From: Pseudomonas phage WP1
Reading direction: 5' to 3' (one strand)
DNA: 64,000 bases
Sequence record: PP596839.1
Positions 5,729-23,264 of the stretch are shown here, one piece after another (the first letter of the stretch is position 1; each line of letters starts with the position of its first letter). Both the position numbers and the translations under genes were made by a program. The notes under the pieces were generated by a model. That model was given only the letters and a program-made list of their open reading frames with translations. It searched no databases and was not told the origin of the DNA.

Positions 5729-5733
5729 GTTGT

Positions 5734-6809: not shown

Positions 6810-7258
6810 GCAAGTCGCTCCGGGCGCCCCTTGCGTCGAGGCACTTCCACAGACTGTCGCGCAGCACTCGCCTTTCTGGCGGAGTTTAGGCCATCTTCGT
6901 GGACCCGGCTCCAGGCTTCCATTATCTTGTGCTGCCGCGCCTTTTCGAGCGCCGGGGGAATCTTCGCATCATCGATGCCGCGCACCCACAATCGAGCATC
7001 AGGAACGTCGCCAGGTCCAGGAGGTTGTTCTCATTTCCCTTCAGCGCATGTTCGGCGAATCCGTTGATCAGAACATCTTCGTCGCAGTCGATCCAGCCGC
7101 CTCGGCCCTTATCGCGGGATCGCTGCAGCTTCTGGCGGATCGCCGTTGCGAACATTGGACAGGGCATACTCGTCCTGAGCTTCGGGTTTTGCCTTCCTGA
7201 GAACGTCGAGGCTGGTCATGACGACTCCATCTACTGGTGAAGGTTTCTTCGGTTCCAT
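6806..7258 (-). CDS. hypothetical protein, frame-disrupted
   Basis: segments MEPKKPS…, MPCPMFATAIRQKLQRSRDKGRGGWIDCDEDVLINGF… and …IDDAKIPPALEKARQHKIMEAW… in three frames; stop overlaps ATG of 6045..6809 (ATGA). Confidence 0.35.
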
Positions 7259-8431
7259 TACACAGGCTCCTTGCTAGTCGCGGCGTTGATGTACGCATCC
7301 AGCAGCTTCTGCGTATCAGCTCGGGCGACGCCATTGTACAGTAGCGCCATTACGGCATAATGCATCGCTTCCGTCTCGCGAACCGGGATCAGGGCATAAC
7401 CCTCTGGCGCGCCGTACCGAGACTTGGCGACCGCCAGCGCTTCGTTGAGCCGGAATCCTTCGCGTACCCAGTCCGTCAGCTTCCCTTCCAGCTCAGCGAC
7501 CCTGGCCAGAGCAGCATCGCGCTCCAGGACGATCTTCTGGGCGGCCTTGATGCTGGCATTGTCGCCGATGAACTAACAGCTTGCCGTCGCCGTCGCCTAC
7601 GCCCATGGTACATTCGTAGGTCGGCCGCTCCGCCTCTGCCTGCGCCGGTGAGGGTTGCGCCAGGGCATCGCGTTCCGCCTTATAACGGCAATAAGCATGG
7701 CCGTATTCATCGCCGACCACGCCGTCACAATAGCTCGCGGCCAGTTCGCTCCCGCGCTTTTCTGATTCGCCGAGTTTTTTCTCCAGCTCGATCGACCCTG
7801 GCCAGAGCAGCATCGCGCTCTTTGCGCATTCCATCCCAGGCCGCGAGGTGCTGCCGGGCCTGCTCTGCCAAGTAATCGCGATCAGCCCGCAGCTCCCCGA
7901 CGATGCTGTCGCACTCGGCGACCGTTGTAAGAGCTTCGGGGTCTTTCAATCCATGGTCCTGCTCATAGACCATTCCCGACTCCCCCGCTGCGATACCCAG
8001 CCACTGCCGGCCTCTTCACAGTCTGCCTTCGCAAGGTCTGGTCGCTTCAGCAGCTCGTTAACGCAGGCGTCGCGCTCTTCCTTGCTGCTGCACCCAGGCG
8101 GGTTGTTCTGCCCGTCTTCATGGCCCCATTCGTAAGCTTCGCTCAGCCTCTTCTTCTCTGCATTCTCGGCCTGCGACGCTTCCGGTTCGCTCCAGCGCTT
8201 TTCCGATTCTTCAAGTTCCTTTTCAAGCCGGATGCTGGTTTCAGTAACTTCGGCGAGCCGATTCACATCGGTCTTTTCGAACTTGGGAGCGCATTGAGGG
8301 CAGTCCTCAAGGTGTCGCTGCGGCTCGTCGCTGATCCACACCTGGCCGCTACCATTACAAATGGTGCATTTTCCATCGAAGTAAAGTTTGACCGATGCCA
8401 GTGCAGGCGGCGCACTTCCGAAGAATCTCAT
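7258..8431 (-). CDS. coiled-coil / zinc-ribbon protein(s) (CTICNGSGQ…CPQC), frame-disrupted; carries 27-bp internal direct repeat
   Basis: N-terminal Cys4 ribbon, long Glu/Arg/Ala-rich helical region, C-terminal …LLDAYINAATSKEPV*; TAATG overlap with next gene. Confidence 0.4.
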
Positions 8432-8587
8432 TTTCAGCGAAATCGATTCCCGCCTTGGTTAGCATCCATTCAGCCCTGATGCGGCCGGTCCCTGCCCAGT
8501 TTTCGAACTCTTGCGCCTTTACATGGCCCACTGTCGAAGTTCATTTAGCGCCTTATTATTGGGACCGGTGAATGGCGGTTGGTTGGG

Positions 8588-8609
8588 ATTGTTGTACAAA
8601 TACAACAAT
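8588..8609. promoter_or_regulatory. perfect inverted repeat ATTGTTGTA-CAAA-TACAACAAT (operator candidate) upstream of minus-strand gene starting at 8431
   Basis: 9-bp arms, 4-bp spacer, in 230-bp intergenic region. Confidence 0.3.
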
Positions 8610-8660
8610 GCAGTTTTATGGTGGTGATTCAGAGTCGGTTTATTGTTCATGCCAATCACC

Positions 8661-9447
8661 TCAGTTACAAATGGCGATATTGATCACTTTATCATGGCCG
8701 GCCGCGAACCTCTCCAGGAAGTCCACCAGGTCATTCAAGATGGTGCCAGCTCGGCCTAGTTTGTGATCGATCAGGAGTTGCGCAGCCCGGTGGCCGACGA
8801 ATGTTCCTGCAGGAACCTGCGGCCACGCTTCGCCGATGCTTTTGAGCACCGCATCAGTATAGATTTTGTCTGCACCGACTTTGTGGTGGTCGAGGATCGT
8901 GCGGTCGCGAACATATCGATTGATGATCCGCCGCAGGAACTCGTCTTCAGTCCCGGCCAGGGCGCCGCATTCATGAAGCTGACGCAGGAGGCGCCACCCC
9001 AGGTTACGCTTCCATTTCTCGGCGAATTCTTCGGCCTCTGCGAATGACGCACGCATAACGCTCTCGACCGGGATGGTGATCGCGCCGCCTTCTTTCGTCC
9101 CAGTTTCCAGGACTGCCCATTCACCGTGCTTGCGGTGCTCGATGAAGCCGATGAGCATTCCGACGTTCGTTTCAGATTCCGCCATCCCAGTCACGCGAAC
9201 GACGGAATGGCGCGGGAACGCTTTCGATCCATGGAGGCTGGACTGGGAGTTGACCCACCCAGCGATGGCCAGGTCGGAGGCTTCGAGCATGGATCAGCTC
9301 GCGACGAATGCGAACGGCCAGAGCCGGGTCCAGCTCGCGACTGCGACGCAGGTAGCCGGGCTTTAGGTTCGGGTCGCGAGTCTTATCGACATTGGGATTC
9401 GGATTGCCGACCGGGAGTTGGTCGCGGTAAATCTTGCATTCTTGCAT
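8661..9447 (-). CDS. hypothetical protein (about 260 aa; one frame break near 9290)
   Basis: 209-aa ORF plus upstream 91-aa ORF that join as MQECKIYRDQLPVGNPNPNVDK…RRELI/MLEASDLAIAGW…. Confidence 0.5.
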
Positions 9448-9540
9448 TTAATGTATCCTCTGTTCTGGAGGGCAGTACAGGCGGCGGCGCTAGTATCGGC
9501 CACTTTCCTGCCGAAGTAAAGTTGGATTAAATTCGCTCGC

Positions 9541-9570
9541 TTTGACGAGTCAGCTGATAGTATACTCTTC
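9541..9570 (+). promoter_or_regulatory. promoter-like element TTTGAC…TATACT with conserved AGTATACTCTTC box, divergent-region promoter for 9616 gene
   Basis: box AGTATACTCTTC recurs at 16770-16781; TATACT also at 11163-11168; all upstream of plus-strand genes. Confidence 0.3.
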
Positions 9571-9615
9571 TTGCGCAGAGGTAAAGCAGGAACTGTACGT
9601 TATAAGGAACATTCA

Positions 9616-10038
9616 ATGGCGGAACATATTTTTACTCACGAAGGTACTGTGGTGTTTGAGGGCCGATCCCGGACGGTGAAGCTTCGGCGCGGCAACCACC
9701 ACTGGGTGGACCCCGATAGACATCGCTATAGCCCACAGGACGGCCGCGCCGCTTCCCAGGCTATTAAGGGTGCGGTCTTGGTCCTTTCGACCGTCCGCTG
9801 GCTCCCTGGTGCGAAGAAGGCCGCAGGCCAGGTGAAGGCCTTCCCTTATAAAGGAAGGGTCCACGCACTCGGCGCCGCTTGGCATTATGTTCTGTTGCGG
9901 CGCACGAAAAACTTCCATGTCGATCCGCACGGCCGCAGGTATCGTCGTGATACTGGTTGGTCTGTGGACGGCTTGCTTAAACTGAGCCTCAGTTCAATTA
10001 AACCTAGCGTTGGAGAACGCAAATATGTCAGCATCTAA
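9616..10038 (+). CDS. hypothetical protein (140 aa)
   Basis: ATG at 9616 with AAGGAA RBS; first gene of plus-strand replication operon. Confidence 0.5.
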   Translation: MAEHIFTHEGTVVFEGRSRTVKLRRGNHHWVDPDRHRYSPQDGRAASQAIKGAVLVLSTVRWLPGAKKAAGQVKAFPYKGRVHALGAAWHYVLLRRTKNFHVDPHGRRYRRDTGWSVDGLLKLSLSSIKPSVGERKYVSI

Positions 10039-11152
10039 CTTCACCGTCGATCAGGTCGAAGAGCGATTCGGATTCCGACCCAATGGCCAGCAGGTCGACG
10101 CTATTAATTCCGTCGTTAACTGGTATCGTGGTTGGTGTGATCGAGCGCACCGCCGCCAGGTCTATCGACTCGCCGGTTTTGCCGGAACTGGTAAGACTTC
10201 CATTGCGAAGATCATCGCTGAGCTTTGCTGCTCGATGGACTGGACAGTCTTCATCGCACCGACCGGAAAAGCAGCAGCGCGTCTTCGTGAGAAAGGCTGC
10301 ACCAGTGCCCGGACTCTTCACAGCTTTATCTATCGACCCATCGGTGAAGATGAAGACGGCGAAATCATGCCTGCCAACAAAGACTCGCTCGACGAGAAAC
10401 CGAAGTTGGTAGTGCTCGACGAGTCGTCTATGATCGGCGAGTGGGATGAAGAGCGCCTGTTGTCGCATCGAATTCCGGTTCTGGAGATTGGTGACTTTGG
10501 CCAAGTTCCTCCTGTGCGCGGCGTCCAGATCTTCCATCGAGAACAGTTGTGATACCATCATGACCGAAATCGAGCGCAACGCCGGCAACATCGTTCGGGC
10601 GTCGATGCTTGTTCGCCAGGGCAAGCGCTTGCCATGCCGCGAGTATGATGACATGTTGGTCCGGGCCGGCTTCGATATGTCGGATGATGAAATGCGGACG
10701 TTCCTGGACAACGATGGTGTGATTCTTTGCGCTTACAACAATACTCGCCGCCGCTTGAACGCACGGCGCTCGGCGAATCCTCGGCTACAGAGGTGCGCAG
10801 CCGGGAATCGGCGAGAAGCTGGTCTGCATCTGGGAACCAGGACGAACATGGAATCATGAATGGCGAACAGGCCATTCTGCTAGACTTCAAGCCAGTTCCT
10901 GAAGGGCAAGAGGATGACGACGAGCCTGATGAAATGTTGTTCGCCAAAGTTCGCATTATCGGCACGAACTATGAACGCTGGGTGAAGTTCAATCCCCTGA
11001 GTTTTTCGGCCGAGGAAGACGTGCGGCTGGAGGCGCAGAAGGCTATTGGCGGATTCGACTTCGGATGGGCGATGACGTTCCACAAGTCGCAGGGATCAGG
11101 AATGGAAACGGGTTGCTATGTTAGAAGAAAACTTGCCGTCCATCCCTTATAG
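10025..11152 (+). CDS. SF1 DNA helicase, RecD/Dda-like (Walker A GFAGTGKT, Walker B VVLDESSM, motif FHKSQGS); two frame breaks
   Basis: three consecutive ORFs (180, 137, 141 aa) that together carry the ordered helicase motifs; GGAG RBS before ATG 10025. Confidence 0.65.
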
Positions 11153-11168
11153 TCAGTTGATGTATACT
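11150..11168 (+). promoter_or_regulatory. promoter-like CAGTTGATGTATACT upstream of K/A/E-repeat gene
   Basis: shares TGATrGTATACT core with 9551-9566. Confidence 0.25.
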
Positions 11169-11378
11169 GGAATCACTCGCGCAACTGAATACTTACTGTT
11201 CTTGCGTAAAAGCTAGGAAATTCTCGAACATAAATAAGTTCCCTAGAGTCTGGACTTTCCCGAAAGAAAATATTTAGGAAAGTTCAGGCTAAGGGTATTC
11301 CCTTCTTCAATTAGTTTAGAGATAATTCCCCTCACAGGCCAATAAGCCATCCCTTTAAACATTCCCGGAGTAAGAACC

Positions 11379-12272
11379 ATGGAACAGAAGGACCAGAACG
11401 AACAGACCCAAGGCGAAGAGCTGACCAAGGAACAGGCCGCTGCCCTGCGCAAGGCCGAGAAGGCCGCTGAGCGCCAACGTAAAGAGCGCGAGCGCGCCGA
11501 GAAGGCCGAAGCCAAGGCCAAGGAAGCCGAGCAGAAGAAAGCCGAGCGCGAAGAGAAGCGCAAGGCCGAGCGCGAGAAGAAGGAAGCCGAGCGCGCCGAG
11601 AAGGCGAAGGAAAAGGCCGCCGCCAAGGAAGCCGAGCGCGCTGAAAAGGCCAAGGCGAAGGAAGCCGAGCAGGCCGAGAAGGCGAAGGCCAAAGAAGCCG
11701 AGCGCGAGCAGAAGAAGGCCGAGAAGGAAGCCGAGCGCGCCAAGAAGGCCGAAGAGAAGAAGGCCGCGCAGGAAGCCCAGAAAGTCGCTCGCGAAGAAGA
11801 GCGCAAGCGCCTGGCCGAAGAGAAGAAGGCAGAGCGCGAAGCCGAGAAGAAGCGTCGCAAGGAAGAGCAGGAAGAGCGCCGCGCGAAGGCCGAAGCCCGC
11901 CGCGAAGACCTGAAGTCCAGTGGTTCGCGCCGTCCGCGTGCCACCCACTTCATCCCGACCGGCGACGGCCACGGTACTCCGCAGGCCTTCTCGACTCGCG
12001 GCAGGGTGTCTGCTTACATCAACGAGCACTGCACCGTTGGTGAGCCGGTCGAAATCGAATCCTTCGGCGAGCAGGTGGCCCACCTGCTGTACGGCACCTC
12101 GGTTCGCAGCTACCTGAGCAGGCTGGAAATAATGGGCTGGGTCGATCTGGTTGCCATCGCTTCGAAGGAAGACGAAGCTGGCCAGGGCGATGACGAGAAG
12201 GCCGGTGACGAAGGCCAGGAGCACGACGGTGATGATCAGGGCGCCGACGGTTCCGATGGTGAAGAAGAGTAA
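11379..12272 (+). CDS. Lys/Ala/Glu-rich repeat protein with globular C-terminal domain and acidic tail
   Basis: 297-aa uninterrupted ORF; residues 15-185 almost exclusively K/A/E/R in degenerate KAEAE repeats; ends DDQGADGSDGEEE; both antisense ORFs are shadows. Confidence 0.65.
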   Translation: MEQKDQNEQTQGEELTKEQAAALRKAEKAAERQRKERERAEKAEAKAKEAEQKKAEREEKRKAEREKKEAERAEKAKEKAAAKEAERAEKAKAKEAEQAEKAKAKEAEREQKKAEKEAERAKKAEEKKAAQEAQKVAREEERKRLAEEKKAEREAEKKRRKEEQEERRAKAEARREDLKSSGSRRPRATHFIPTGDGHGTPQAFSTRGRVSAYINEHCTVGEPVEIESFGEQVAHLLYGTSVRSYLSRLEIMGWVDLVAIASKEDEAGQGDDEKAGDEGQEHDGDDQGADGSDGEEE

Positions 12273-12311
12273 GCCGCCGCTCTTCTGAGACTGAATCGTC
12301 TAGCTCTTCAA

Positions 12312-12340
12312 GGGACTAATGAAATGGGTCCCTTTTTTAT
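12312..12340 (+). terminator. rho-independent terminator GGGAC…GTCCC TTTTTT
   Basis: 5-bp stem, 11-nt loop, 6 T. Confidence 0.5.
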
Positions 12341-12375
12341 CCTCTCAAGTTCTGTACACTCATAAGGAACAGATC

Positions 12376-13378
12376 ATGATTCCTGATCATAAAGTCATCA
12401 TTGTAGGCGCCGGACTCGCCGGACTTATCGCCGCGCATCGCTTCCCTCAAGCTCAAATCATCGACGCGGCGACGCCGGAGAACAAAGAGCGTCACAACGC
12501 GCTCTTGCGATTCCGCTCACCAGTCATCGGCCAGCTCACCGGCATCCCATTCCGCGAAGTCACCGTACACAAGGCCATCTACATTGACGGCGGGTTCGCT
12601 CCCCAGCCGCGCATCGACTACTGCAGCATGTACTCCAGGAAAGTAACGGGCGGCCTGTCGGATCGGTCCACCTGGAATATGGCGACCGAAAAGCGTTGGA
12701 TCGCTCCGGCCGACTACCATGAGCAGCTGGTCGCTAAGCTGGCGAATCGCATCAGCTGGGGAAGGCCTTTCGACGCCTCTTTCTTCCAGTTCCTTCGCCG
12801 GCAAGATGATCACGTTAATATCATCAGCACAGCACCATTCCGCGCCAACCTGGCTGCGGCAGGACTGGACCTGGGTATCGACCCGTCATTCGGCGAAGGC
12901 ACTGCCATCGTCGTGAGTCGGTACAGGCTTTCCATTCCTTGTGATGTCTTCCAGGCGGTGTATTTCCCTGGTCCCGAAGTGGGAACGTTTCGAGCGTCCA
13001 TCACCGGAGACACCCTTATCGTCGAATCCGTTACTAAGGGCGTCGTGGAGACTGCCGATGGTGAAATCGAAACCATCGAATGGGACAGCAACTGGGACCT
13101 GGATGAAGTTTGCTCGGCCTTCGGCATCAGGAAGAAGAATCTCATTCCGGACGGCGAGCCGACCGTCCAGACCAAGGGTAAAATCATTCCGCTCGGTCGC
13201 GACGAGCGCGAATCCGATGACCTGGAATCTCACCCATGAAGCCGGCATCTTCTCGCTCGGTCGGTTCGCGACTTGGCGAAACGTCCTCCTGGACGATCTG
13301 GTTTCGGACATGGACGTCATCGAGCGCCTGATGACTTCTTCGTCTTATCAGAAGGCCAAGAAGATGTTCGTGAAATAA
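12376..13378 (+). CDS. FAD/NAD(P)-binding oxidoreductase, UDP-galactopyranose-mutase/amine-oxidase-like fold; one frame break near 13230
   Basis: N-terminal Rossmann dinucleotide motif VIIVGAGLAGL; C-terminal LGRFATWRN…DMDVIERL resembles C-terminus of Glf-family flavoenzymes; AAGGAA RBS. Confidence 0.5.
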
Positions 13379-13390
13379 TTTACACAAAGT

Positions 13391-13442
13391 GCTTTACTTC
13401 TTAGCCAGGTGAGAGTAGTATTCCCTCATCGAAACGCGAAAC
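13391..13442 (+). promoter_or_regulatory. promoter TGCTTTACTTC-17-TAGTAT plus conserved leader CATCGAAACGCGAAAC (copy A)
   Basis: -35 TTTACT 13393-13398, -10 TAGTAT 13416-13421, leader 13427-13442, ATG at 13468. Confidence 0.5.
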
Positions 13443-13467
13443 CCTTCAACCAAAAGGAATCGACAAA

Positions 13468-13698
13468 ATGGCCCGCGAAGTAACCTTCTCCACCGACAAA
13501 AACACCACCAAGACCTACGCCACCAAGGCCAATCTCGAACGCGCCATCGCCAAGGCCGAATGGCTCGGTGAAAGTGCACGCTACTTCATCCACCTGACCG
13601 AGGATGGCCGCCTGACGCCCGTGTTCCTTCTTAACAGTCTTCCTGCGGGAACTGGCGCGGTGTGGTGCGCCCAGCACGGCTGGAATGTGATAGGTTAA
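13468..13698 (+). CDS. hypothetical protein (76 aa)
   Basis: AAAAGGAA RBS, clean ORF, TAATG overlap with next gene. Confidence 0.55.
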   Translation: MAREVTFSTDKNTTKTYATKANLERAIAKAEWLGESARYFIHLTEDGRLTPVFLLNSLPAGTGAVWCAQHGWNVIG

Positions 13699-13916
13699 TG
13701 GCAGTCGATCCTCGCGAGGCAGCGCTCAAGCGGGCGCTGCTGGCTTTCTTCCGTGACACGCAGGCCCTTGGCGGCGGGAGTCTCACAATAACGGCCCGGA
13801 TCGTCGGGCCAGAAGGCGACAGGAAGCTTCGCGCCAGTTATTTCCTGAATGGCGCGAAGCTGAGCCTGTCCGATATCATCGCTAAAGTGGAGGCCGAAGA
13901 TGGGCCGGATCGTTAA
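13698..13916 (+). CDS. hypothetical protein (72 aa)
   Basis: translationally coupled start; protein-like. Confidence 0.5.
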   Translation: MAVDPREAALKRALLAFFRDTQALGGGSLTITARIVGPEGDRKLRASYFLNGAKLSLSDIIAKVEAEDGPDR

Positions 13917-14119
13917 CATCAAAGTAGTCATTTCTCGCACGACCGAGCGCGACTCCATGGGTTCGCCGTACATCCATTGAGTCTTATCGCACTTTCACCT
14001 TCGGCGCCGCCACAACGCTGGTTGCGGCCCTCGACTGGGTGAAAAGCCAGTGCCCGGAAATCGTTGATATGATCATCTACGAACCGGAAACAGTGGCCGC
14101 TCAGCAGGAGCGCTATTAA
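13900..14119 (+). CDS. hypothetical protein, frame-disrupted
   Basis: MGRIVNIKVVISRTTER… then …SYRTFTFGAATTLVAALDWVKSQCPEIVDMIIYEPETVAAQQERY* in another frame; TAATG overlap with 14119. Confidence 0.3.
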
Positions 14120-14385
14120 TGTACTCGCCAGACCATCCTGAAGAGGTTCCCATGTCTTTCCTCGAAATGCAAGTCGACCCGCCGCAAACGCGACAGACAG
14201 CGCCGTCTTTCGTTCTGGTAGGCATCCTGTACCTGATTGGCGATGGGCGCCTGGACGATAAGCCTTTCACTTCGTTCAACCTGTCGTTCGGCAGTCGCGA
14301 AGAGGCCGAGCGCGCCCGCGACAAGATTACTGAGCATTACCTGGACCGCCGCGATATTCGCGCCGAAATCATCCGCTGCTACTGA
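14119..14385 (+). CDS. hypothetical protein (88 aa)
   Basis: clean ORF in operon. Confidence 0.5.
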   Translation: MYSPDHPEEVPMSFLEMQVDPPQTRQTAPSFVLVGILYLIGDGRLDDKPFTSFNLSFGSREEAERARDKITEHYLDRRDIRAEIIRCY

Positions 14386-14396
14386 GGATTGCAGTA

Positions 14397-14606
14397 ATGT
14401 CCATTGAACTGGTGTACCGGACCTCTGATGGCACTATCTTCTCGTCCATTGTGCCACGCCGAAGAGCCATGAAGACCGACCTGGAGGCGTGCAGGTTGCT
14501 GGCCGAAGAGATCGACAGATACGGTCTACACAAGGAAGATGCACAAGCGCTGGCCATTGCGCTGACGGAGAAATTCACTTTCACGCCAATTCCGGAAGAT
14601 TTCTGA
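14397..14606 (+). CDS. hypothetical protein (69 aa)
   Basis: clean ORF; TGATG overlap with thyX. Confidence 0.5.
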   Translation: MSIELVYRTSDGTIFSSIVPRRRAMKTDLEACRLLAEEIDRYGLHKEDAQALAIALTEKFTFTPIPEDF

Positions 14607-15321
14607 TGAAAATTTCTCTGATCAGTTACACCCAGAACGCCTGGGAACTTCTCCTGGGTACGAAATCAGCCCGCCATGCGCGGCCAAGACCCGGCGACCA
14701 TGACCGAAGCCGAAAAGCTCGACCACTGGAAGTACATGGCCTGGATACCATCCGCTCGCCATTCGAATTCGTGGACTTCATTTTCCAGGTCGAGGGCGTG
14801 AGCAAGTAACTTCACCCATCAACTCGTTCGGACGCGGACCGGGGCTTACCAGCAGGAAACAGGTCGCGCCCTGGAGGTTAGCGCCGTTGTTCAGCCGGAA
14901 GCATTCCGCTGGGATTTCGATGAGCAGGCTACGGCCAATGGCGAGCCGGACCCGACCTATCACGCCCGCGAAGAGCTGAACCGCCTGTGGCATTATGCCA
15001 TCGCCGACGCGCAGACCAGTTACCAGAAGCTCTCTGGAGGCAGGCGCATCGCTCCAGGATGCTCGTGCCATCATCCCTTCCAGCATGGAAACGAAGATTG
15101 CGGCCAAGTTCAACCTGCGGACTCTCAGCGACATGGCGAAAGTTCGCCTGTGCGTTCGTACGCAAGGGGAGTATCAGGAAGCCTTCCGCGAAATGCGCCG
15201 ACTGGTTCTGGAAGTCTATCCGATGTTCGATAGCATGCTCCAGCCGCACTGCGTCGCTACTGGCTCCTGTGCCTTCCCGCGCTATGGATCGAAGGTTCTG
15301 AATGAAGATGAGATTCATTGA
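14606..15321 (+). CDS. thyX: flavin-dependent thymidylate synthase ThyX; at least 4 frame changes
   Basis: segments FEFVDFIFQVEGVS, …TMTEAEKLDHWKYMAW…, …VRTRTGAYQQE…, ARAIIPSSMETKIAAKFNLRTLSDMAKVRLCVRTQGEYQEAFREM match ThyX conserved blocks in order. Confidence 0.7.
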
Positions 15322-15559
15322 GCAATCCCATGACCGCTTCATGTCCGCTCTGGAGACGAAGCCCGGCCAGGTTCCTGTGGTTGAGTTGCCGGTGAAACCG
15401 ATCTATCAGTGCAAGTTCTATCGTCCATGGATGGATCGCTCGGCCGAGCAGGAAGAGCTGCGCCGCGAGTTCTGGGGATCGGAGAAACAAGAGGCCAATC
15501 CTGTAGCGGTCAGTGGGAAGTCAGTGCAGCATGAAGATCATCATCGAGAAGGTTGGTGA
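15302..15559 (+). CDS. hypothetical protein (85 aa)
   Basis: ORF overlapping thyX 3' end. Confidence 0.4.
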   Translation: MKMRFIEQSHDRFMSALETKPGQVPVVELPVKPIYQCKFYRPWMDRSAEQEELRREFWGSEKQEANPVAVSGKSVQHEDHHREGW

Positions 15560-15722
15560 TGTCGCACAAGTAGAAGTCACCAACGGCGGCGAATCAATTC
15601 GCATCACGATGAACGTGAAATCGTTCGACCTGGTACAGAACGGTGAGCTGTTCCGCCTGACCTCCGATGGCGCGTTCATCGAGAAAACCATCACCCAGAA
15701 AGCAGAAAGCGAGGAAATCTGA
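15531..15722 (+). CDS. hypothetical protein (63 aa)
   Basis: MKIIIEKVGDVAQVEVTNGG…, protein-like. Confidence 0.45.
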   Translation: MKIIIEKVGDVAQVEVTNGGESIRITMNVKSFDLVQNGELFRLTSDGAFIEKTITQKAESEEI

Positions 15723-15752
15723 ATATGGCATCGAAAACCAAGGAATGGCATC

Positions 15753-16679
15753 ATGATCTTCGATCTTGACGGATGCGTCTTCGACGATAGCCACCGTAAA
15801 AGCTTCGCACTGGAAAAGCAATGGGACGAGTACCACTCCCGCCTCGACAAGGACAAGCTCAATCCGCATGCAGTAGCACGAATCCGTAACGCCATCGACG
15901 CCGACCTGATGATTTTCTTCATCACCGGCCGAACCGACAACAACTATTTCCAGACCAGGGCGAAAATCCATCGCGACCTGGGTATCGCCGAACATCGCGA
16001 ATATGAGCTCATCATGCGGGAGTATGGAAACACCCAGCCGGCGCCGGAGTTCAAGCGCTCAGTCGCGCTAGATATTCTGAAGAAGATCGACGGCGTGACA
16101 AAGATCGTCGCGGCATTCGATGACCGACAGGATATCATCGACGCCTACAAGGGCCTGGGAATCGATGCCTATATCCTGAACCTGGAAGGCTGCGATGCGC
16201 CGTTCTTCGCCGTCGCGGCCGATAGCGATCCCGGTAGCGCGCCCAACAACATGGCAGGCGAGCCGTTCTCGGTCGCCCCGGACTCCGCCCCTACCCTCGA
16301 CGAGGCGTTTGCGCAGGCCCCTTCTCCGCTCTACGAAGAGCCGAACGAAGACGCAGCCGAAGACGCGGCCGAAGAGGCAACGGCGCCGTTCGCCATGGCA
16401 TCCAGCTGGCCCGGTGACGGCGCTGCCGATCCCGATGATTTCGTGGAGGACGTTCTCAGCAACCTGTCCGCCGCAGCAGGCATTTTCCGCGACCGCCAGG
16501 GCGCTTATGGCCGAAATGACCTGATGTATGGCAGGATCATGGAAATCCTCTTCCCGAATGGCATGGTGGTGAAGACCGCTGATGATCATCGACTCGCCCT
16601 GTTCGTGATGCATATCGTTGGCAAACTCACTCGCCTGGCGAACAGTGGGTTTGAGGATGATGATTCGGTCTTGGACTGA
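15753..16679 (+). CDS. HAD-superfamily phosphatase (motifs DLDG, ITGR, K, FDDRQD) with Ala/Asp/Glu/Pro-rich linker and conserved C-terminal domain
   Basis: 308-aa uninterrupted ORF; ordered HAD motifs I-IV in first 150 aa. Confidence 0.6.
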   Translation: MIFDLDGCVFDDSHRKSFALEKQWDEYHSRLDKDKLNPHAVARIRNAIDADLMIFFITGRTDNNYFQTRAKIHRDLGIAEHREYELIMREYGNTQPAPEFKRSVALDILKKIDGVTKIVAAFDDRQDIIDAYKGLGIDAYILNLEGCDAPFFAVAADSDPGSAPNNMAGEPFSVAPDSAPTLDEAFAQAPSPLYEEPNEDAAEDAAEEATAPFAMASSWPGDGAADPDDFVEDVLSNLSAAAGIFRDRQGAYGRNDLMYGRIMEILFPNGMVVKTADDHRLALFVMHIVGKLTRLANSGFEDDDSVLD

Positions 16680-16769
16680 TCAGCTATTCAGCGTTTGTCC
16701 AATGCCACCATGTATTCCGGCCGCATCACGCCGAAAGACGGACAGGAGGCATAAACCCTGCGCCGTTGC

Positions 16770-16810
16770 AGTATACTCTTCAGGCCGGTCGCGAAAGCAG
16801 CCGGCCTTTC
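16770..16810 (+). promoter_or_regulatory. AGTATACTCTTC box followed by GGCCGG…CCGGCC hairpin in 5' region of exonuclease gene
   Basis: second copy of box seen at 9559-9570; 6-bp GC stem immediately downstream. Confidence 0.3.
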
Positions 16811-16830
16811 GACATAAGAGGGAACAGGAC

Positions 16831-17387
16831 ATGAGATTCGCCGTATGGGATACTGAGACCACAGGACTCCCGTTCCACCAGAGGGTAAGTCTGCGGAAGC
16901 AGCCAGAATCACTGAATTCGCCGGAGTCATCACCGATGGCGAGACGATTCTGGATGAAGTCGAGTTCACCTGCAACCCTGGGATTGTGATCGAAGAAATC
17001 ATTACAAAGATCACAGGCCTGAAGAATGAAGACTTAATCAAACACCCATCGTTCCTCGATCAACGCCAGAAAGTTCGCGATTTCTTTTCGAAGGCCGACG
17101 CAGGTATTGCCCACAACCTTCCGTTCGATAAATTCATGCTTACCTGCGATCTGGCTCGCGGAAAGCTCGGCCTGGAAGAAGTCAACTTCCCATCGCTCGA
17201 TATCTGTACTGTAGAAGAGTCGGCGCCATTGTTCGGCCACCGCATGCGGCTGCAGGCATCCTGCATGAGCATTACTGCGGACCTTATGTCCAGAAGCACC
17301 GGGCATTGGACGACGTGCGGCTGCTCCATCGAAGCCTGCAAGCACATGGGAGTGTATCGGGCGTATCAAGCAATGGAGGCCGCATAA
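16831..17387 (+). CDS. DnaQ-like 3'-5' proofreading exonuclease (Exo I DTETTG, Exo II AHNLPFD, Exo III HRALDDV); two frame breaks
   Basis: motifs found in order across three frames; GGGAACAGGAC RBS region. Confidence 0.65.
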
Positions 17388-20050
17388 TGTCTTTTCCTCA
17401 ACTACGCGTTCGTTCCGGCTACTCACATGGCGCCGCATGGCGGCAGGTTCCCGGAAATCATTGAGCGTGCCAGAGAAATCGAATCGCCCTTTGTCGCCAT
17501 CGTCGATGATGGGACCTGGGGCCACGTCCGCTGGGAGCAGGCAGCTACCAGAGCAGGAATTGCCTCGCGGATTCGGCATGGAAATCCCGATCAAATGCGC
17601 CGATGATGGCGAAAAAGAACTGAAGCTGAAGGCCTGGGCGCTAGCCAAAGATACCAGAAGATTCTATCGCCTTACTTCGAAGACTGTCCAGAATCAAGGC
17701 TTGTCGCCCAAAGAATTCCAGGACGCTGACGGCATCATCAAGTTCGCCGGCGAGGCCTATGCCTACTTGGACTTGGCCGGGATCGACTACACTGACATCA
17801 ATCCTGCGTCGATGGTAGCCGCGCACGGCGCTATGGAGACGGCCAGGGCGTTCGGCAGGCCTGTGGTGATTACCTCTTACAACGACATGCCGTCCATCGG
17901 CCATGTAGATTTTGCTTCGGCCTGGAAGGTTCGGGAATCGGTCGGACTTCGCCACATCGCGACTGAGGAAGAGTTGTGGACCCGTCTTCGCCATGTCATG
18001 ACCCGCGAAGAGTTCGACGAGGCCATGGCCAGTACGCAATGCGGTGGCTGAGCAGCTGGCCGATGTAAAACTGGCAAAAGCGCCAATGATCCACCTAGAT
18101 GGTGATATCGTCGCCCTGGCTCGCGAGGGCCAAGCCTACCGTCTCAGTCGCGGCCACATCAAGGAATGGACCCAGGTTTACGAAGATCGGTTCCAGGAAG
18201 AAATCAAGCAAATTCAGCTGAAAGACTTCGACAGCTACTTCCTGGTGGTAGCCGATCTGGTTGCGTTCGCCAAGAAGCACATGTTGGTCGGCCCGGCTCG
18301 CGGCTCTTCGGCCGGCTCTTTGGCCTGCTACCTGCTGGGTATTACCGAGGCTGATCCGCTCCCGCATCGCCTTCTCTTCCAGCGCTTTATCGACATTTCC
18401 CGTTCCGATCTTCCCGATATAGATATCGACTTCGCCGATACCCATCGCTATCTAGTGTTCGAATATCTCCAGCAGAAATACGGCACTTGGAACGTGGTGA
18501 AGCTCGGGAACATCAACGCGCTGAAGGCCGCGTCGGTTATCGCTCACGTCGGGAAGCGCTTCGGCATTCCATTCCATGATACCGACAACATCAAAAACTC
18601 GATCACTGAATATACTTCGGCGGACGAACGACATGGAAAAGGATTGGAGGACACTTTCGAAAAAACTCAACCCGGCCGCGACTTCCGAGAAAAGTATGAG
18701 ATTGCGTCCGCCTGCATGGGCGACCTCGAAATTCACCCATCCCACTCCGGCGTCCACGCGGCAGGAATCCTGGCGTGCAACGATGAAGTAACCGATTTCT
18801 GTACGGTTACTCCTGAAGGCATCGCGCAGCTCGACAGCCTGATTCGGAATATTTGAATCTTCTCAAGATTGACGCGCTAGGCCTTCGAACGCTGGGCGTA
18901 ATCCAAGATGCGAATTGCGTGACGGCGCAGGAGCTGCATGACTTACCGCTGAACGACAAGGCGGTTTTGGACGTTCTCAATGAAGACAGATGTCAGGCAT
19001 CTTCCAGTTCGAAGGTCAGGCCGTCCGCTCGGTCGCCAGTGCGATCAACATCACCGCGTTCGAAAACATCGACCACATCACTGGCGCTCGCTCGTCCGGG
19101 TCCGTCTGTCTTCGGGCATGGCCACGAAATACATCGAGCGCGTAGCCGGTCGCGAGCCTGTGACCTATACCATTCCGCAGGTCGAGCAGTATCTTGTCGG
19201 GGACGTATGGTGTGTTCCTGTACCAGAACAGGTCATGTCAGTTGTTAAGGACATTGGTCAGTTCGACTGGGAACAAACGTCGGCGATCCGGAAAGCGATG
19301 TCGGCGCGGAAGGGCGAAGAGTTCTTCAACAAGCGCCGAGAATTGTTCATCGAGGGCGCCAGGACCATAGGCGTCGCCCCGGAAGACGCTCACCGAGTTT
19401 GGCAGGAAATGGTGACATTCGGAGCCTGGGGATTCAGCCGCTCCCACTCGGTAAGCTATGCCGTGGTGACGTACTGGACTTGCTACATGAAGCGGTATCA
19501 TCGCCTGGAATACGCGGCCGCGTGCCTTCGGGCGGCGAAGGACGACCAGCAGACTGTGTCTATCCTTCGCGAATTGGCCAAAGAAGGCGTAGAATATACG
19601 GCCCTGGACCCGGAGCATTCCGAACTCAACTGGGTGGTAGCGGACGGACGCCTGATCGGCGGCATAATGAACGCCAAGGGCTTCGGCCCGGCGAAGGCCG
19701 AGCGGTTCCTGCGTCTTCGCGAGGAAGTCAGGGCCGCGAGGATTGCCCTGGCAAATTGCCCGATTTCGGCGCAGGATGTAGAGGATAAGGCCGATGACGT
19801 TGCCGCGCTGGAAGCCCAGATTCTTCCTGCGAAAGTCAGTCGAGACAAAGAACTGGAGAAGCTACTCAAAGCTGATCTAAAGGAGTTGAAGGCTGAGCTG
19901 AAGGAGTTGAAGGCGCAATATAAAGAGCTGGCCGGCTCCCACCTTAAAACACTTCAGGATTGGGAGAAAGTTGCCGCGAGTTTGTCAAATTCCGAGGTTC
20001 AGTTCGCGGATCTGAACGAATCTCATGCGCTCTGGGGCCATGCGCCATGA
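17387..20050 (+). CDS. dnaE: DnaE-type (Pol III alpha-like) DNA polymerase, about 890 aa, at least 6 frame changes
   Basis: PHP start MSFPQLRVRSGYS, GSSAGSLACYLLGITEADPL, PDIDIDF, HSGVHAAGIL, GIFQFEG, FGAWGFSRSHSVSYAVVTYWTCYMKRYH all in canonical order; TAATG coupling to exonuclease gene. Confidence 0.75.
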
Positions 20051-20498
20051 CAATCCGAGGCTGGTTGGAGTAACTTCCGGAAATCCAATTCAGAACATTC
20101 GTGATATCCGCGATGGCGACGATGGGCTGGTTATCGTCAAGCTGGTGAAGAAAGTTCTGTCGGATGAGAATGAACCGATCCGCCAGAAGAAGAGGGCTGA
20201 CCAAGGGAAGAATCCAGTGTACAAAGGCCAGTCGCAGTTCCTCGACTTGATGTGCGCTGATGACTCGGTTGACCAGCCGATTCGTTTCAGGATTCGCCCT
20301 GAAAAATATCTTCAGTACGGGAAGAATATCGCCGAAGGTACGCCGACCGGCTCTTGGTTCCTCATCAAAGGATGGAAGCTCAGCGGAATCGATATGTTCA
20401 TCGTGAAGGCCGTCAAGCGGATATTGACCGAACGCGAGAAGGCGAAGCTGGCAGCGCAAGCAGAGAAAGATTCCGAAGAGGGGAATGGTGATGAATGA
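20040..20498 (+). CDS. hypothetical protein, possibly detached C-terminal OB-fold region of the polymerase
   Basis: in-frame ATG at 20040 overlapping dnaE end; beta-rich composition. Confidence 0.35.
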   Translation: MRHDNPRLVGVTSGNPIQNIRDIRDGDDGLVIVKLVKKVLSDENEPIRQKKRADQGKNPVYKGQSQFLDLMCADDSVDQPIRFRIRPEKYLQYGKNIAEGTPTGSWFLIKGWKLSGIDMFIVKAVKRILTEREKAKLAAQAEKDSEEGNGDE

Positions 20499-20901
20499 TC
20501 GCGAAACGAAAGCAGCGAATGCGTTTAAGCAACGCTCCCTCGGCCGAATCCTGATCGACTTCCTGGAGACGCGCCGGTCCGGCATGTCCGATTCGATCTG
20601 TCTTAATCGTCGCGGCGTCCAGTTCTGGGTTGAGTTCAAGGCCCTGGAAGCTTGGCCGAAACGCACCTCGACCTGCCCAGTGGCTCGTTGTTTCGAGCCT
20701 GGACAGGTCCCTTTCCTTCGGGAGCGGATCGGCTGGGGTGGTCGAGGCTTCGTCCTGGCAAAAATCGGGACCGATTGGCTGCTTTTGAATCCCATGCTCG
20801 ATCTGTTCGATCTCAACAGCCGCGACCTGGTGGAAGTCGCGAGTAATGCAGAAGGACTGGACAACATCATCCAATTCCTCGCCGATCTGGAGAATAAATG
20901 A
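20485..20901 (+). CDS. VRR-NUC / PD-(D/E)xK nuclease-like protein
   Basis: D…EFK catalytic-type spacing (SDSICLNRRGVQFWVEFKA); commonly paired with SNF2 helicases in phages. Confidence 0.4.
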   Translation: MVMNDRETKAANAFKQRSLGRILIDFLETRRSGMSDSICLNRRGVQFWVEFKALEAWPKRTSTCPVARCFEPGQVPFLRERIGWGGRGFVLAKIGTDWLLLNPMLDLFDLNSRDLVEVASNAEGLDNIIQFLADLENK

Positions 20902-22460
20902 AAGCCAAAACGTTTCCGGTCAAGGGCATGAAGACCGAGGCCATGCAGCACCAGTTCAATGCCCTGGCAGCTTCCCTAAACAAAAGAAATTTCGCCTACC
21001 TGATGGAACAGGGCACCGGGAAGACATGGACTACTTTGGCAGGCTCAGTTAGACTCTTCCTGCAAGGAAGGGTTGACGCTCTGCTCATCGTCGCCCCCAA
21101 TGGCGTGCATACGAACTGGATTCTGCGCGAAATTCCTACTCACGTCGCAGTCGAGACTCTGTGCGTGGACTGGCGCGGCAGGCCGACTACCAAAAAGGCC
21201 AGGGCGCGTTTGGATCGCCTGCATGCCGAGACGTTCGCCGACGAAAAAGTGCTTCGGGTATTTTCCATTAACGTCGATGCCATCAACTATCAGGCCGGCT
21301 ATGACGAAGTCGAGCGATTCCTTAAGACGTTCAAAGCCTGCGCAGTTGTGGATGAATCAGCGAGGATCAAGAACCCTCAGGCCAAACGAGCGAAAAAGAT
21401 CGTAAAGCTGGGCGAGAAGGCCGTGGCGCGCCGCATACTTTCCTGGTACGCCTCTGACGCGAGCGCCTACGGATTTGTTTATGCAGTTTCAATTCCTGCG
21501 TGATGGAATTCTGGGGACGAAATCCTATCGCGCGTTCGTAGCTGAATTTTCCGTTCTGGTTCCAGGTGACGACCCGCGAATGGTCGCCATAATGCGCAGG
21601 CTGGATGGGAAGAGTACTGTTCCACCTCAGCTCGTCGAAAAAGACGATTCTGGGCGACCAGTATTCCGAAATCTTGACAGACTGCGGTCCCTGATCGAGC
21701 CGCACAGCTTCCGAGTCACGAAGAAAGAGGCATTGCCATTCCTGCCAGAAAAGGTTTACAAGCGCATATATTTCGAAATGTCTCCGGAGCAAAGGAAGGT
21801 TTATCAGCGCGTTGAAGAAGACTACCACTTCGTGCTCAAGAACGAAGATTTCATGGTTGATGTATCGTTCGACGCGGCAGCGGCTCGTTCGAAACTCAAG
21901 CAGGTGGCGTCTGGCTATATCAGCGTTTATGGGGAGCCGATAATCCTGCCGCCCGAAGATAACCCGCGATTCGCAGTGTTCACCGACCTTCTGGAGGGTC
22001 TGTTGGAGGAAGACCCGGAACGGTCCATCATCATCTGGGCCATGGCGGATTCATTAAATCGGCCAGGTCGCTGCGTATCTTGAGACCCAGGGAATTTCGT
22101 TTGGAGCCTATTATGGCGAGACCAAAGAGGCCGAACGAGAAAAACTGATCGATGATTTCCAGGCTAAGCGCGTCCAAGTCTTCCTGGGCAACCCGGCCGC
22201 AGCTGGGATCGGGATCACGCTCACTGCCGCAGGCGTGGCAATTTACTACACGACCGACGAAGACAGCGAGTTGCGGATGCAGTCCGAAGACAGGAACCAT
22301 CGCATCGGAACCGTCAGCTCTGTTCTGTACTTCGACCTCGACCTGCCTGGACTCCATCGACGAGAAAATCCAGGCTAGCTTGGAGTGGAAGCGCAGTCTT
22401 GCGAGTTATGTCGTCGATGGAGTGTTCGAGGCTGACGTTAGCACTCGCGACGAAATTTAA
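20898..22460 (+). CDS. SNF2-family helicase (EQGTGKT, VVDESARIKN, QSEDRNHRIG); about 3 frame breaks
   Basis: ordered SNF2 N- and C-terminal helicase motifs across ORFs 20898-21503, 21475-22083, 22152-22460. Confidence 0.7.
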
Positions 22461-22554
22461 TATGTAAATCAGTAGCCGTATCAAGGAAGATGCGGCATAA
22501 TATCTACTCAATACTTAGTTCAAGTAAGGGAACATCACTAAGTTGGAGGCTTAC

Positions 22555-23175: not shown

Positions 23176-23187
23176 CATGTAATTTGC

Positions 23188-23216: not shown

Positions 23217-23264
23217 AAACCCACAGTTAGAAATAACTGAAATTCGACAAACAAGGAGCCTAAC

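What the first reader, a model, noticed from the sequence alone, without database searches (positions are those of the whole stretch)
14606..15321. Pervasive local frame disruption of clearly recognisable genes
thyX needs at least four frame switches, including two compensating shifts only about 70 nt apart (14680-14760) that restore the TMTEAEKLDHWKYMAW block. dnaE (17387-20050) needs at least six. The ligase, SNF2 helicase, primase-helicase, sheath, portal and terL are all similarly broken. Small genes are often intact. These are indels rather than in-frame stops, so stop-codon reassignment is not the explanation. Uniformly distributed indel errors from an uncorrected long-read assembly or similar are most likely. 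Extensive prophage decay would instead give clustered lesions and large deletions.
Basis: partly seen in the sequence, partly recalled or inferred. Interest (0 to 1): 0.6.

Follow-up and report, generated by a model that had tools for sequence, protein, structure and literature searches.

The report
Modified-thymine sequencing errors break phage genes
The broken genes are not real: this is an ordinary Pseudomonas phage genome whose chemically modified thymines (in every TG) almost certainly made a long-read sequencer misread the neighbouring one or two bases, scattering false frameshifts through nearly every gene.

Summary
The window is about 64 kb of a roughly 66 kb Pbunavirus (PB1-like Pseudomonas aeruginosa phage). 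thyX (14606-15529) needs five frame switches and the DNA polymerase has 10 private indels. 57 of 67 core genes carry at least one indel found in none of six reference genomes (306 in 53.4 kb, against 2-15 per reference).

"Uniform long-read indel noise" is only partly right. All private indels are 1-2 nt, insertions outnumber deletions 2.4:1, and they are not homopolymer-driven. About 1,150 unselected substitutions accompany them, spread evenly over codon positions.

Nearly all lesions sit 1-2 nt 3' of a CA dinucleotide, which is 5' of TG on the other strand. They are strand-specific. From about 27.7 to 59.5 kb, 93-94% of susceptible CA sites are rewritten on one strand and about 0% on the other (CAA→CAG, CAGA→CAGG, CATA→CATG).

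Pbunavirus DNA was recently shown to carry a hypermodified thymidine in a TG motif. Native nanopore reads of this genus are reported to be unusually poor.

Best explanation: modification-induced, strand-specific basecalling errors in an unpolished assembly with low or one-sided strand coverage. The frameshifts are an artefact, although their cause is real and already described biology.

The parts
1..64000 (.). About 64 kb of a roughly 66 kb Pbunavirus (PB1-like P. aeruginosa myophage) genome. It is fully collinear with phage Pa-A and carries motif-anchored sequencing lesions throughout.
   Evidence: About 300 Pbunavirus records match, but none exceeds 92-96% identity in any segment. The window is collinear with Pa-A over 2-64000. 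Against Pa-A there are 363 indels of 1-2 nt and 8 longer ones.
14606..15529 (+). thyX (FAD-dependent thymidylate synthase), 305 aa in relatives. Here it is split over the frame path 0/+1/0/+1/+2/0 and the stop codon is lost.
14674..14674 (+). Private +1 insertion (C) in GCCCG[C]CATG. It lies 2 nt 5' of a + strand TG (equivalently CAT[G]G on the - strand).
14739..14740 (+). Private +2 insertion (GC) in CATG[GC]CTGG. It restores the frame that was shifted at 14674.
14807..14807 (+). Private +1 insertion (T) in CAAG[T]AAC. It creates a TAA stop in frame.
15034..15034 (+). Private +1 insertion (C) in CTCT[C]TGG, immediately 5' of TG.
15318..15318 (+). Private +1 insertion (T) in TTCA[T]TGAG, after CA and before TG. 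It creates the TGA that ends the finding's interval.
15527..15529 (+). The thyX stop codon TAG is read as CAG. Nearby CA[A]TG->CA[G]TG changes are typical motif conversions.
17387..20498 (+). DNA polymerase III alpha-like gene (3108 nt in the references) with 10 private indels (net +4) and 37 private substitutions.
   Evidence: reference annotation.
27700..59500 (.). Single-strand error block. 53-84% of all + strand CA(N)A adenines are read as G and 0-4% of the - strand equivalents. 93-94% of susceptible CA sites are altered. I infer the block was built only from reads of the - strand, which bears the modified T of each affected TG.
1..27699 (.). Mixed zone. Lesions of both strand types are finely interspersed at roughly 10-45% of motif sites, and overall density is lower. 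I infer consensus from reads of both strands.
59501..64000 (.). Zone where - type lesions (T>C 5' of TG on the + strand) dominate: 41/106 against 7/141.

Best explanation
The window is an otherwise normal, full-length Pbunavirus genome. It was most probably read from native (unamplified) virion DNA on a nanopore-type single-molecule platform and never polished.

Pbunavirus DNA carries a bulky hypermodified thymidine (T*) at TG dinucleotides. I infer that when a strand bearing T*G passes the sensor, the basecaller calls T*G itself mostly correctly but misreads the one or two bases 5' of it.

In read-strand terms the errors are T->C, G->A and C->A, plus extra or missing bases. In the window's + strand terms they appear 1-2 nt 3' of CA as A->G, C->T and G->T, insertions of G or T, and loss of A (often a conversion followed by collapse of the resulting run, for example CAAG->CAGG->CAG).

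The error occurs only in reads of the strand that carries the T*. Where the consensus rests on one strand only (about 27.7-59.5 kb), almost every susceptible site is wrong. Where both strands contribute, the wrong call wins only some of the time.

The resulting 5.7 indels per kb break 57 of 67 core genes, thyX among them.

Shown here: the lesions are private and unselected, and their anchoring on CA/TG, their strand structure and their near-deterministic rewriting. Taken from the literature: the T*G modification and the poor native nanopore reads of this genus. Inferred: that this record came from a nanopore, native-DNA, low-coverage or strand-unbalanced source.
For: Private and abnormal lesions:
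- 216 private insertions and 90 private deletions, all 1-2 nt, against 2-15 per reference.
- Gap openings of 7.8 per kb against PaW12, compared with 0.37 per kb between two finished genomes.

Unselected:
- Private substitutions fall at codon positions 424/392/450, against 66-77% at position 3 in all six references.

Motif anchoring:
- A>G occurs almost only at CA[A] and CAN[A]. Rates are 0.37-0.58 overall, up to 0.80 for CAG[A]T, and at most 0.06 in other contexts.
- CA is unique among the 16 dinucleotides, 0.19-0.21 against about 0.01.
- Indels share the context: 127 of 216 insertions and 58 of 90 deletions lie within 2 nt 3' of CA.

Near-deterministic rewriting in the 28-59 kb block:
- CAACC->CAGCC 15/15, CAATA->CAGTA 9/9, CAGAC->CAGGC 16/20, CATGA->CATTA 19/26.
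- CAGG, CAGT and CATT are unchanged 86-100% of the time.
- 94% of CAA and 93% of CA[GT]A sites are altered whatever the flanking bases.

Strand specificity:
- The strand bias is independent of gene orientation: A>G/T>C is 177/68 in + strand genes and 409/84 in - strand genes.
- It forms block-wise regimes.
- The T>C hot contexts are the exact reverse complements of the A>G ones.

One process:
- Substitution and indel densities co-vary, rho 0.71.

Literature:
- Yee et al., bioRxiv 10.1101/2025.03.31.646159: the Pbunaviruses F8 and 14-1 have a hypermodified thymidine in a TG motif replacing about a quarter of T. 27.2-27.5% of T are followed by G in finished genomes.
- bioRxiv 10.64898/2026.07.08.737226: native ONT reads of Pbunavirus have median Q 11.3, against 15.7 after PCR. 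[quoted passage not shown]
- Liu et al., Genome Res 2024 (PMC11610603): DNA modification causes nanopore mismatches on one strand only.
- bioRxiv 10.64898/2026.01.14.699587: modification-associated A/G substitutions, and single-base indels as the dominant nanopore indel class.
Against: - The source record and its sequencing platform are unknown. An exact 32-mer spanning an indel was found in none of the viral, genome or metagenome contig collections, and an exact-protein lookup found nothing.
- Insertions outnumber deletions 2.4:1, whereas ordinary nanopore error is usually described as deletion-rich. That statement is from my own knowledge.
- A 32 kb stretch supported by one strand only requires very low coverage or an assembler that copies single reads. 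I could not verify either.
- No published description of the exact error footprint (bases 5' of T*G) exists to compare with.
- The two GenBank 'UNVERIFIED' Pbunavirus records examined (Pa-A, L13) do not show the signature.
Confidence: 0.8

Rival explanations
1. Generic uncorrected long-read noise: random or homopolymer-driven indels spread uniformly, unrelated to any property of the DNA.
For: The indels are short (1-2 nt), private to the window and locally Poisson-spaced (KS against an exponential p = 0.27 within 32-50 kb). About 86 of 306 indels and about 440 substitutions are not next to CA or TG.
Against: - 59% of private substitutions fall in 12% of positions.
- Conversion reaches 94% at CAA sites.
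- Only 54% of 1-nt insertions match a neighbouring base, against 45% by chance, and deletions follow the background run-length distribution.
- Density is non-uniform, chi-square p = 2e-6.
- The strand asymmetry forms blocks.
Confidence: 0.07
2. A polymerase-based artefact (PacBio-type sequencing, or first-cycle copying during amplification). The polymerase copying a T*G template would misincorporate 1-2 positions after passing the adduct, giving T.G and G.T wobble errors and slippage.
For: - The polarity fits. A polymerase moving 3'->5' on the template meets G, then T*, then the miscalled bases.
- In read-strand terms the dominant errors, T->C and G->A, are the classical wobble misincorporations (spectrum).
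- The excess of insertions over deletions resembles PacBio continuous-long-read behaviour. That comparison is from my own knowledge.
Against: - Error rates of 90% or more per site are far above any known polymerase misincorporation.
- Hundreds of polymerase-based (Illumina) Pbunavirus assemblies have intact genes.
- PCR-based libraries improved Pbunavirus data rather than harming it.
- A SMRTbell molecule reads both strands, which argues against a 32 kb single-strand block.
Confidence: 0.07
3. The lesions are real mutations: a decaying or defective phage copy (a pseudogenised relic), or a genome hypermutated by a DNA deaminase or a mismatch-repair defect.
For: Transitions dominate (1090 transitions against 262 transversions). 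A->G and C->T are the changes deamination would give. The long strand-coordinated tract superficially resembles single-strand-DNA mutagenesis clusters.
Against: - With 57 of 67 genes broken the phage could not replicate, yet the genome is full-length, collinear and free of private indels longer than 2 nt.
- Insertions exceed deletions 2.4:1 and none is 3 nt or longer. This is the opposite of the deletional bias with broad length spectrum known for bacterial pseudogenes, a point from my own knowledge.
- G->T changes, insertions and deletions share the same CA anchor, which no deaminase explains.
- Pbunaviruses are virulent, and the window shows no host flank.
- The asymmetry does not flip with gene orientation, which rules out editing of sense transcripts.
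Confidence: 0.02
4. Programmed recoding (ribosomal frameshifting, transcriptional slippage) or an alternative genetic code restores the reading frames.
For: None beyond the presence of frameshifts. One naturally slippery G/C run does exist in this genus.
Against: - The indels are absent from all six references, and their orthologues are intact.
- 5.7 indels per kb, accompanied by unselected missense changes.
- The lesions are not in homopolymers or at slippery heptamers.
Confidence: 0.01
5. Deliberately simulated or otherwise synthetic corruption of a real Pbunavirus genome.
For: The source could not be found in any collection. Indel lengths are capped at 2 nt with a roughly geometric ratio.
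Against: A simulator would not anchor errors on the one dinucleotide that was independently shown to be chemically modified in this genus. Nor would it produce context-specific rewriting with run collapse and block-wise strand regimes.
Confidence: 0.03

Closest known systems
Modification-induced, strand-specific nanopore basecalling errors (Liu et al., Genome Res 2024, PMC11610603; bioRxiv 10.64898/2026.01.14.699587)
   Same: The errors are tied to a sequence motif, occur on one strand only, are dominated by purine-purine and pyrimidine-pyrimidine miscalls, and survive into long-read-only assemblies (against here).
   Different: The published cases are 6mA, 5mC or 4mC at methyltransferase motifs 4-6 nt long, giving a few thousand sites per bacterial genome and mostly substitutions. 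Here the motif is a dinucleotide (about 8,100 TG in 66 kb counting both strands) and the adduct is a bulky sugar-type thymidine derivative. The errors fall on the bases 5' of the modified base, and frequent 1-2 nt indels destroy reading frames.
Pbunavirus hypermodified thymidine in a TG motif (Yee et al., bioRxiv 10.1101/2025.03.31.646159)
   Same: The genus is the same. The dinucleotide is the same (TG, seen here as its complement CA). The stoichiometry agrees: about a quarter of T by LC-MS, and 27% of T are in TG.
   Different: That work inferred TG from ten restriction enzymes and LC-MS and includes no sequencing footprint. Here the evidence is indirect, an error map, but it is genome-wide and at single-site resolution. 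It suggests no specificity beyond TG on the three flanking positions tested, and near-complete occupancy. The chemistry cannot be seen from sequence.
Failure of native nanopore sequencing for Pbunavirus (bioRxiv 10.64898/2026.07.08.737226)
   Same: The problem is specific to this genus, is attributed to modified bases and is cured by PCR-based libraries.
   Different: That study reports low Q-scores and failed assemblies, not the motif, the polarity or the frameshift consequences. The present window looks like what results when such reads do assemble.
Homopolymer indel errors of 454, Ion Torrent or nanopore consensus sequences
   Same: Short frameshifting indels occur in otherwise recognisable genes.
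   Different: The lesions here are not enriched in homopolymers. Some deletions are run collapses, but only after a motif-driven base conversion.

Membership tests
Modification-induced strand-specific nanopore basecalling error | Errors are concentrated at a defined sequence motif | tested here: met
   CA/TG is unique among the 16 dinucleotides. 59% of private substitutions fall in 12% of positions.
Modification-induced strand-specific nanopore basecalling error | Errors occur on one strand of a site and not on the other | tested here: met
   From 28 to 59 kb the + type rate is 53-84% and the - type rate 0-4%. The hot contexts on the two strands are reverse complements. This was judged on a consensus, not on reads.
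Modification-induced strand-specific nanopore basecalling error | Errors vanish in amplified (modification-free) DNA, and the raw current differs between native and amplified DNA | not testable with these tools
   No reads or signal data are available and the source record was not found. The literature reports improvement with PCR libraries for this genus.
Modification-induced strand-specific nanopore basecalling error | The sequence was produced on a nanopore platform from native DNA | not testable with these tools
   Provenance is unknown. The platform is inferred from the error signature only.
Pbunavirus TG-motif hypermodified thymidine | The genome belongs to Pbunavirus | tested here: met
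   About 300 Pbunavirus records match at 80-96%. The window is collinear with Pa-A, Ab28, F8 and LBL3.
Pbunavirus TG-motif hypermodified thymidine | The modification is targeted to T in 5'-TG-3' | tested here: met
   The footprint is anchored on CA, the complement of TG. It is independent of the three bases on the far side (88-100% in every class). This is an indirect readout.
Pbunavirus TG-motif hypermodified thymidine | About one quarter of thymidines are replaced | tested here: met
   27.2-27.5% of T are followed by G in finished genomes, and 93-94% of susceptible sites are affected in the single-strand block.
Pbunavirus TG-motif hypermodified thymidine | Chemical identity (362 or 390 Da thymidine derivative by LC-MS) | not testable with these tools
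   This requires virion DNA.
Pseudogenised or decaying prophage | Deletional bias with a broad indel length spectrum, large deletions or rearrangements, and host flanks | tested here: not met
   The insertion:deletion ratio is 2.4:1 and no private indel exceeds 2 nt. The genome is full-length and collinear. No host DNA is present in the window.
Programmed frameshifting or recoding | The shift site is conserved in relatives and lies at a slippery sequence | tested here: not met
   All 306 indels are absent from six relatives, and their contexts are CA-anchored, not slippery.
Homopolymer-driven indel error | Indels are enriched in homopolymer runs and increase with run length | tested here: not met
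   54% of insertions match a neighbour against 45% expected. Deletions fall at run lengths 1/2/3/4 in proportions 0.51/0.31/0.14/0.05, against a background of 0.54/0.34/0.10/0.03.

The most novel reading that the evidence does not exclude
The error map is, in effect, the first genome-wide single-site readout of the Pbunavirus thymidine hypermodification. It indicates that the bare dinucleotide TG is the whole recognition element, with no dependence on the three neighbouring bases tested, and that essentially every TG on a strand is modified (at least 93%).

This would imply a dinucleotide-specific post-replicative thymine-modifying activity. It would also give a defined, correctable basecalling signature: the bases 1-2 nt 5' of T*G are read T->C, G->A and C->A, with or without a 1-nt indel.
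Probability: 0.55. Interest if true: 0.5.

Novelty: not a real feature. Interest (0 to 1): 0.3.

Why it matters
As a genomic feature it does not matter, because the frameshifts are not in the phage.

It matters in two practical ways. First, Pbunaviruses are among the most widely used therapeutic Pseudomonas phages, and native long-read-only assemblies of them can look like wrecked genomes. Gene calling, safety screening and taxonomy on such records are unreliable unless the DNA is amplified or the assembly is polished with short reads. The specific signature found here allows such records to be recognised, and in principle corrected.

Second, the artefact independently corroborates a recently reported and still unpublished DNA hypermodification. 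It refines that report: TG alone appears to be the motif, and occupancy appears near-complete. This helps the search for the enzyme responsible, which is still unknown.

Tried and rejected
- **Source tracing.** An exact 32-mer spanning the +2 insertion was searched in viral contigs, genome contigs and metagenome contigs with 0 hits. An exact-protein lookup of the frameshift-truncated 308-aa ORF at 15753-16679 found nothing on record. Provenance therefore stays unknown.
- **Homopolymer hypothesis.** Rejected.
- **Uniform-noise hypothesis.** Rejected.
- **Transcription-linked or RNA-editing origin (ADAR/RADAR-like A-to-I).** Rejected. A>G exceeds T>C in genes of both orientations. The -1 preference (A>G>T>C) does not look ADAR-like, a comparison from my own knowledge. 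Indels share the motif.
- **Methyltransferase-type longer motif (Dam, Dcm or Type I).** Rejected. No information lies beyond CA on the 5' side, and only the identity of the target bases matters on the 3' side.
- **Contig spliced from single reads of alternating orientation, for the mixed zone.** Not supported. The + and - type events are finely interspersed there, which fits a two-strand consensus better.
- **Do the GenBank 'UNVERIFIED' relatives Pa-A and L13 share the signature?** They do not.
- **Not used.** The protein-homology, structure-prediction and RNA-family tools, because the genes are unambiguous orthologues of annotated Pbunavirus genes.

Full report
**What the window is.** Megablast of four segments against about 50,700 phage records finds roughly 300 Pbunavirus (PB1-like Pseudomonas aeruginosa myophage) genomes. 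None exceeds 92-96% identity in any segment. The window is collinear over positions 2-64000 with phage Pa-A, a 65.9 kb record. It is collinear over 8.2-61.6 kb with PaW12, Ab28, L13, F8 and LBL3. It therefore represents about 64 kb of a roughly 66 kb genome, with no rearrangement and no large deletion.

**Checking the observation.** In the annotated relatives thyX is 918 bp and 305 aa. A DNA alignment of window 14590-15560 with two references shows that the window carries extra bases at 14674 (+C), 14739-14740 (+GC), 14807 (+T), 15034 (+C) and 15318 (+T). There is also a compensated change near 14861, and the TAG stop is changed to CAG at 15527-15529.
- tblastn and the three-frame translation give the frame path 0, +1, 0, +1, +2, 0.
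- The gene ends at 15529, not at 15321.
- Of 67 reference genes mapped onto the window, 57 carry at least one indel absent from all six references, and only nine ORFs are intact.
- The polymerase (17387-20498) has ten private indels, the portal eighteen, the sheath eight, and the ligase and terL five each.
- Short genes escape roughly as Poisson predicts.

There are 7.8 gap openings per kb between the window and PaW12, against 0.37 per kb between PaW12 and Ab28.

**Leave-one-out control.** I aligned the window's core (8187-61590) with six genomes. For each sequence in turn I counted the changes found in that sequence alone.
- The window has 216 private insertions and 90 private deletions. Every one is 1 or 2 nt long.
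- The references have 2-15 private indels each, several of them multiples of three.
- The window also has 1,352 private substitutions with a transition:transversion ratio of 4.2. The references have ratios of 1.6-2.5.

**The lesions are not filtered by selection.** Private substitutions in every reference fall 66-77% on third codon positions. In the window they fall 424/392/450 on positions 1/2/3. Decomposing these numbers suggests about 95 natural private substitutions, a number typical for this genus, plus about 1,150 unselected ones. A phage with 57 of 67 core genes broken and 2% random missense change could not replicate. The lesions are therefore not in a living genome.

**The lesions are not generic noise.**
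54% of single-base insertions match a neighbour against 45% expected, and deletions follow the background distribution of run lengths.
- The base bias is strong. G and T are inserted (78 and 68, against C 40 and A 12) and A is deleted (46 of 81).
- The substitution spectrum is asymmetric between strands: A>G 635 against T>C 162, and C>T 237 against G>A 56.
- The asymmetry keeps its sign in genes of both orientations. That excludes any transcript-based process.
- Density is not uniform (variance/mean 2.9, p = 2e-6). Substitution and indel densities co-vary (rho 0.71), so one process made both.

**The CA anchor.** Context analysis shows that A>G happens almost only at an A lying one or two bases 3' of a CA dinucleotide.
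- Rates are CCA[A] 0.53, CAG[A] 0.56, CAT[A] 0.58 and CAG[A]T 0.80. Every other context is at most 0.06.
- C>T occurs at CA[C] and CAT[C]G, and G>T at CAT[G]A.
- The T>C hot spots ([T]CTG, [T]ATG, [T]TGA) are the exact reverse complements of the A>G hot spots.
- Insertions and deletions have the same address: CCA[T]CG, GCA[G]GAA, CAT[G]GC, C[A]AG, CAT[A]GG.
- 59% of the window's private substitutions lie within 2 nt 3' of CA, where 12% are expected and the references show 11-17%.
- CA is unique among the sixteen dinucleotides.

**Strand regimes.** From about 27.7 to 59.5 kb, 53-84% of all + strand motif adenines are converted and 0-4% of the − strand equivalents. From 1 to 27 kb both types occur, finely interspersed, at about 10-45%. 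From 60 to 64 kb the − type dominates.
- Within the one-strand block the change is almost a rewriting rule. CAACC becomes CAGCC 15/15, CAATA becomes CAGTA 9/9, CAGAC becomes CAGGC 16/20, CATAG becomes CATGG 12/17 and CATGA becomes CATTA 19/26.
- K-mers already ending in G or T (CAGG, CAGT, CATT) stay unchanged 86-100% of the time.
- Many deletions are a conversion followed by collapse of the new run (CAAG to CAGG to CAG).
- 94% of CAA sites and 93% of CA[G/T]A sites are altered whatever the three bases on the other side.

**The biological cause.** CA is the complement of TG.
- Yee et al. (bioRxiv 10.1101/2025.03.31.646159) report that virion DNA of the Pbunaviruses F8 and 14-1 resists the five of ten tested restriction enzymes whose sites contain TG. 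It contains a novel thymidine derivative (nucleoside mass 362 or 390) replacing about a quarter of T. They conclude 'hypermodified thymine, in a TG motif'.
- In finished Pbunavirus genomes 27.2-27.5% of T are followed by G.
- A 2026 preprint (10.64898/2026.07.08.737226) reports that native nanopore libraries give much poorer reads for Pbunavirus in particular (median Q 11.3, against 15.7 with a PCR library). [quoted passage not shown]
- Liu et al. (Genome Res 2024, PMC11610603) showed that DNA modifications cause nanopore mismatches on one strand only.
- A related preprint documents modification-associated A/G miscalls and single-base indels as the main nanopore indel class.

**Mechanism proposed.** A strand carrying the bulky T* at TG is read by the sensor. 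T*G itself is usually called correctly, but the one or two bases 5' of it are miscalled (T>C, G>A and C>A in read-strand terms) or are duplicated or dropped. Because only the strand bearing T* is affected, a consensus built from one strand keeps almost every error; this would be the 27.7-59.5 kb block, read from the − strand. A consensus built from both strands keeps a minority of both kinds. Motif-anchored 1-2 nt indels at 5.7 per kb then break nearly every gene longer than a few hundred bases.
- Shown here: the private and unselected nature of the lesions, the CA/TG anchoring, the polarity, the strand blocks and the near-complete site occupancy.
- Taken from the literature: the existence of T*G and the nanopore difficulty with this genus.
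- Inferred: that this particular record came from native DNA on a nanopore platform at low or strand-unbalanced coverage without polishing.

**Rivals.**
- Generic long-read noise cannot explain the motif, the polarity or the blocks.
- A polymerase-based artefact (PacBio, or copying of a T*G template) fits the polarity and the wobble-type errors. It does not fit per-site error rates above 90%, the intact genes of hundreds of polymerase-based assemblies, or the benefit of PCR libraries.
- Real mutation (prophage decay, deaminase hypermutation) is contradicted by non-viability combined with perfect collinearity. It is also contradicted by insertion bias with no indel longer than 2 nt, and by indels and G>T changes sharing the anchor.
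- Recoding is excluded because every indel is absent from relatives whose orthologues are intact.
- Synthetic corruption is unlikely to target the one dinucleotide independently known to be modified in this genus.

**What remains open.** I could not find the source sequence in any collection, so the platform and coverage are inferences. The excess of insertions over deletions is not what I would expect of ordinary nanopore error. It may be a property of this adduct. No published footprint exists for comparison.

**Verdict.** The frame disruption is real in the sequence and unreal in the phage. The cause is a recently described TG-specific thymidine hypermodification, for which the error map gives an independent, genome-wide footprint. 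It suggests that TG alone is the motif and that nearly every site is modified. As a discovery the finding rates low. Its value lies in diagnosing such records and in that corroboration.

Noticed in passing
window 33677-33690 (- strand gene start region): The poly-C tract reads CCCCTCCCCCC here. The references have C9 (PaW12, Ab28, LBL3), C11 (F8) or CTCCCCC (L13). The LBL3 record annotates G9/G10 subpopulations and a translational frameshift in the baseplate wedge gene at this run. This is the one naturally frameshift-prone site in this genome type. The termini of the Pa-A record fall inside it.
   Followed up: partly
window 25431-26343 (DNA ligase) and the wider 22-32 kb region: The ligase has 65 private substitutions in 912 nt. 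The 22-32 kb region shows third-codon enrichment, 53/62/96. Part of the divergence here is therefore a natural, divergent allele not represented among the six references, on top of the artefacts.
   Followed up: partly
window ~7526-8186 and ~61600-63220: These stretches are not collinear with most references, or match them only weakly. They look like the accessory, variable small-gene regions of Pbunavirus genomes.
   Followed up: no
L006+L007 (Pa-A, MN871454.1) and L008+L009 (L13, OR255951.1): Both close relatives are flagged 'UNVERIFIED' in GenBank and carry no annotation. Even so, they have few private indels (5 and 6) and no CA-anchored signature (17% and 11% against a 12% background). Their flag has some other cause.
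   Followed up: partly
window, CA sites in 28-59 kb: The C of CA is itself sometimes miscalled (C>G at AG[C]A about 12% of the time; outcomes such as GAGGA and TAGGC). The footprint therefore extends weakly onto the base opposite the G of T*G.
   Followed up: no
window 14606-15529 (thyX) and neighbouring nucleotide-metabolism genes (PNK 15725-16754, MazG-like 24821-25377): The phage encodes its own flavin-dependent thymidylate synthase. No recognised thymidine-hypermodification genes are annotated in the relatives, and the published work names no biosynthetic genes for the T*G modification. Which of the many conserved hypothetical proteins makes it remains open.
   Followed up: no
whole window: The window contains no homopolymer of 7 nt or longer, although the references have a G/C run of 9-11 nt.
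   Followed up: partly
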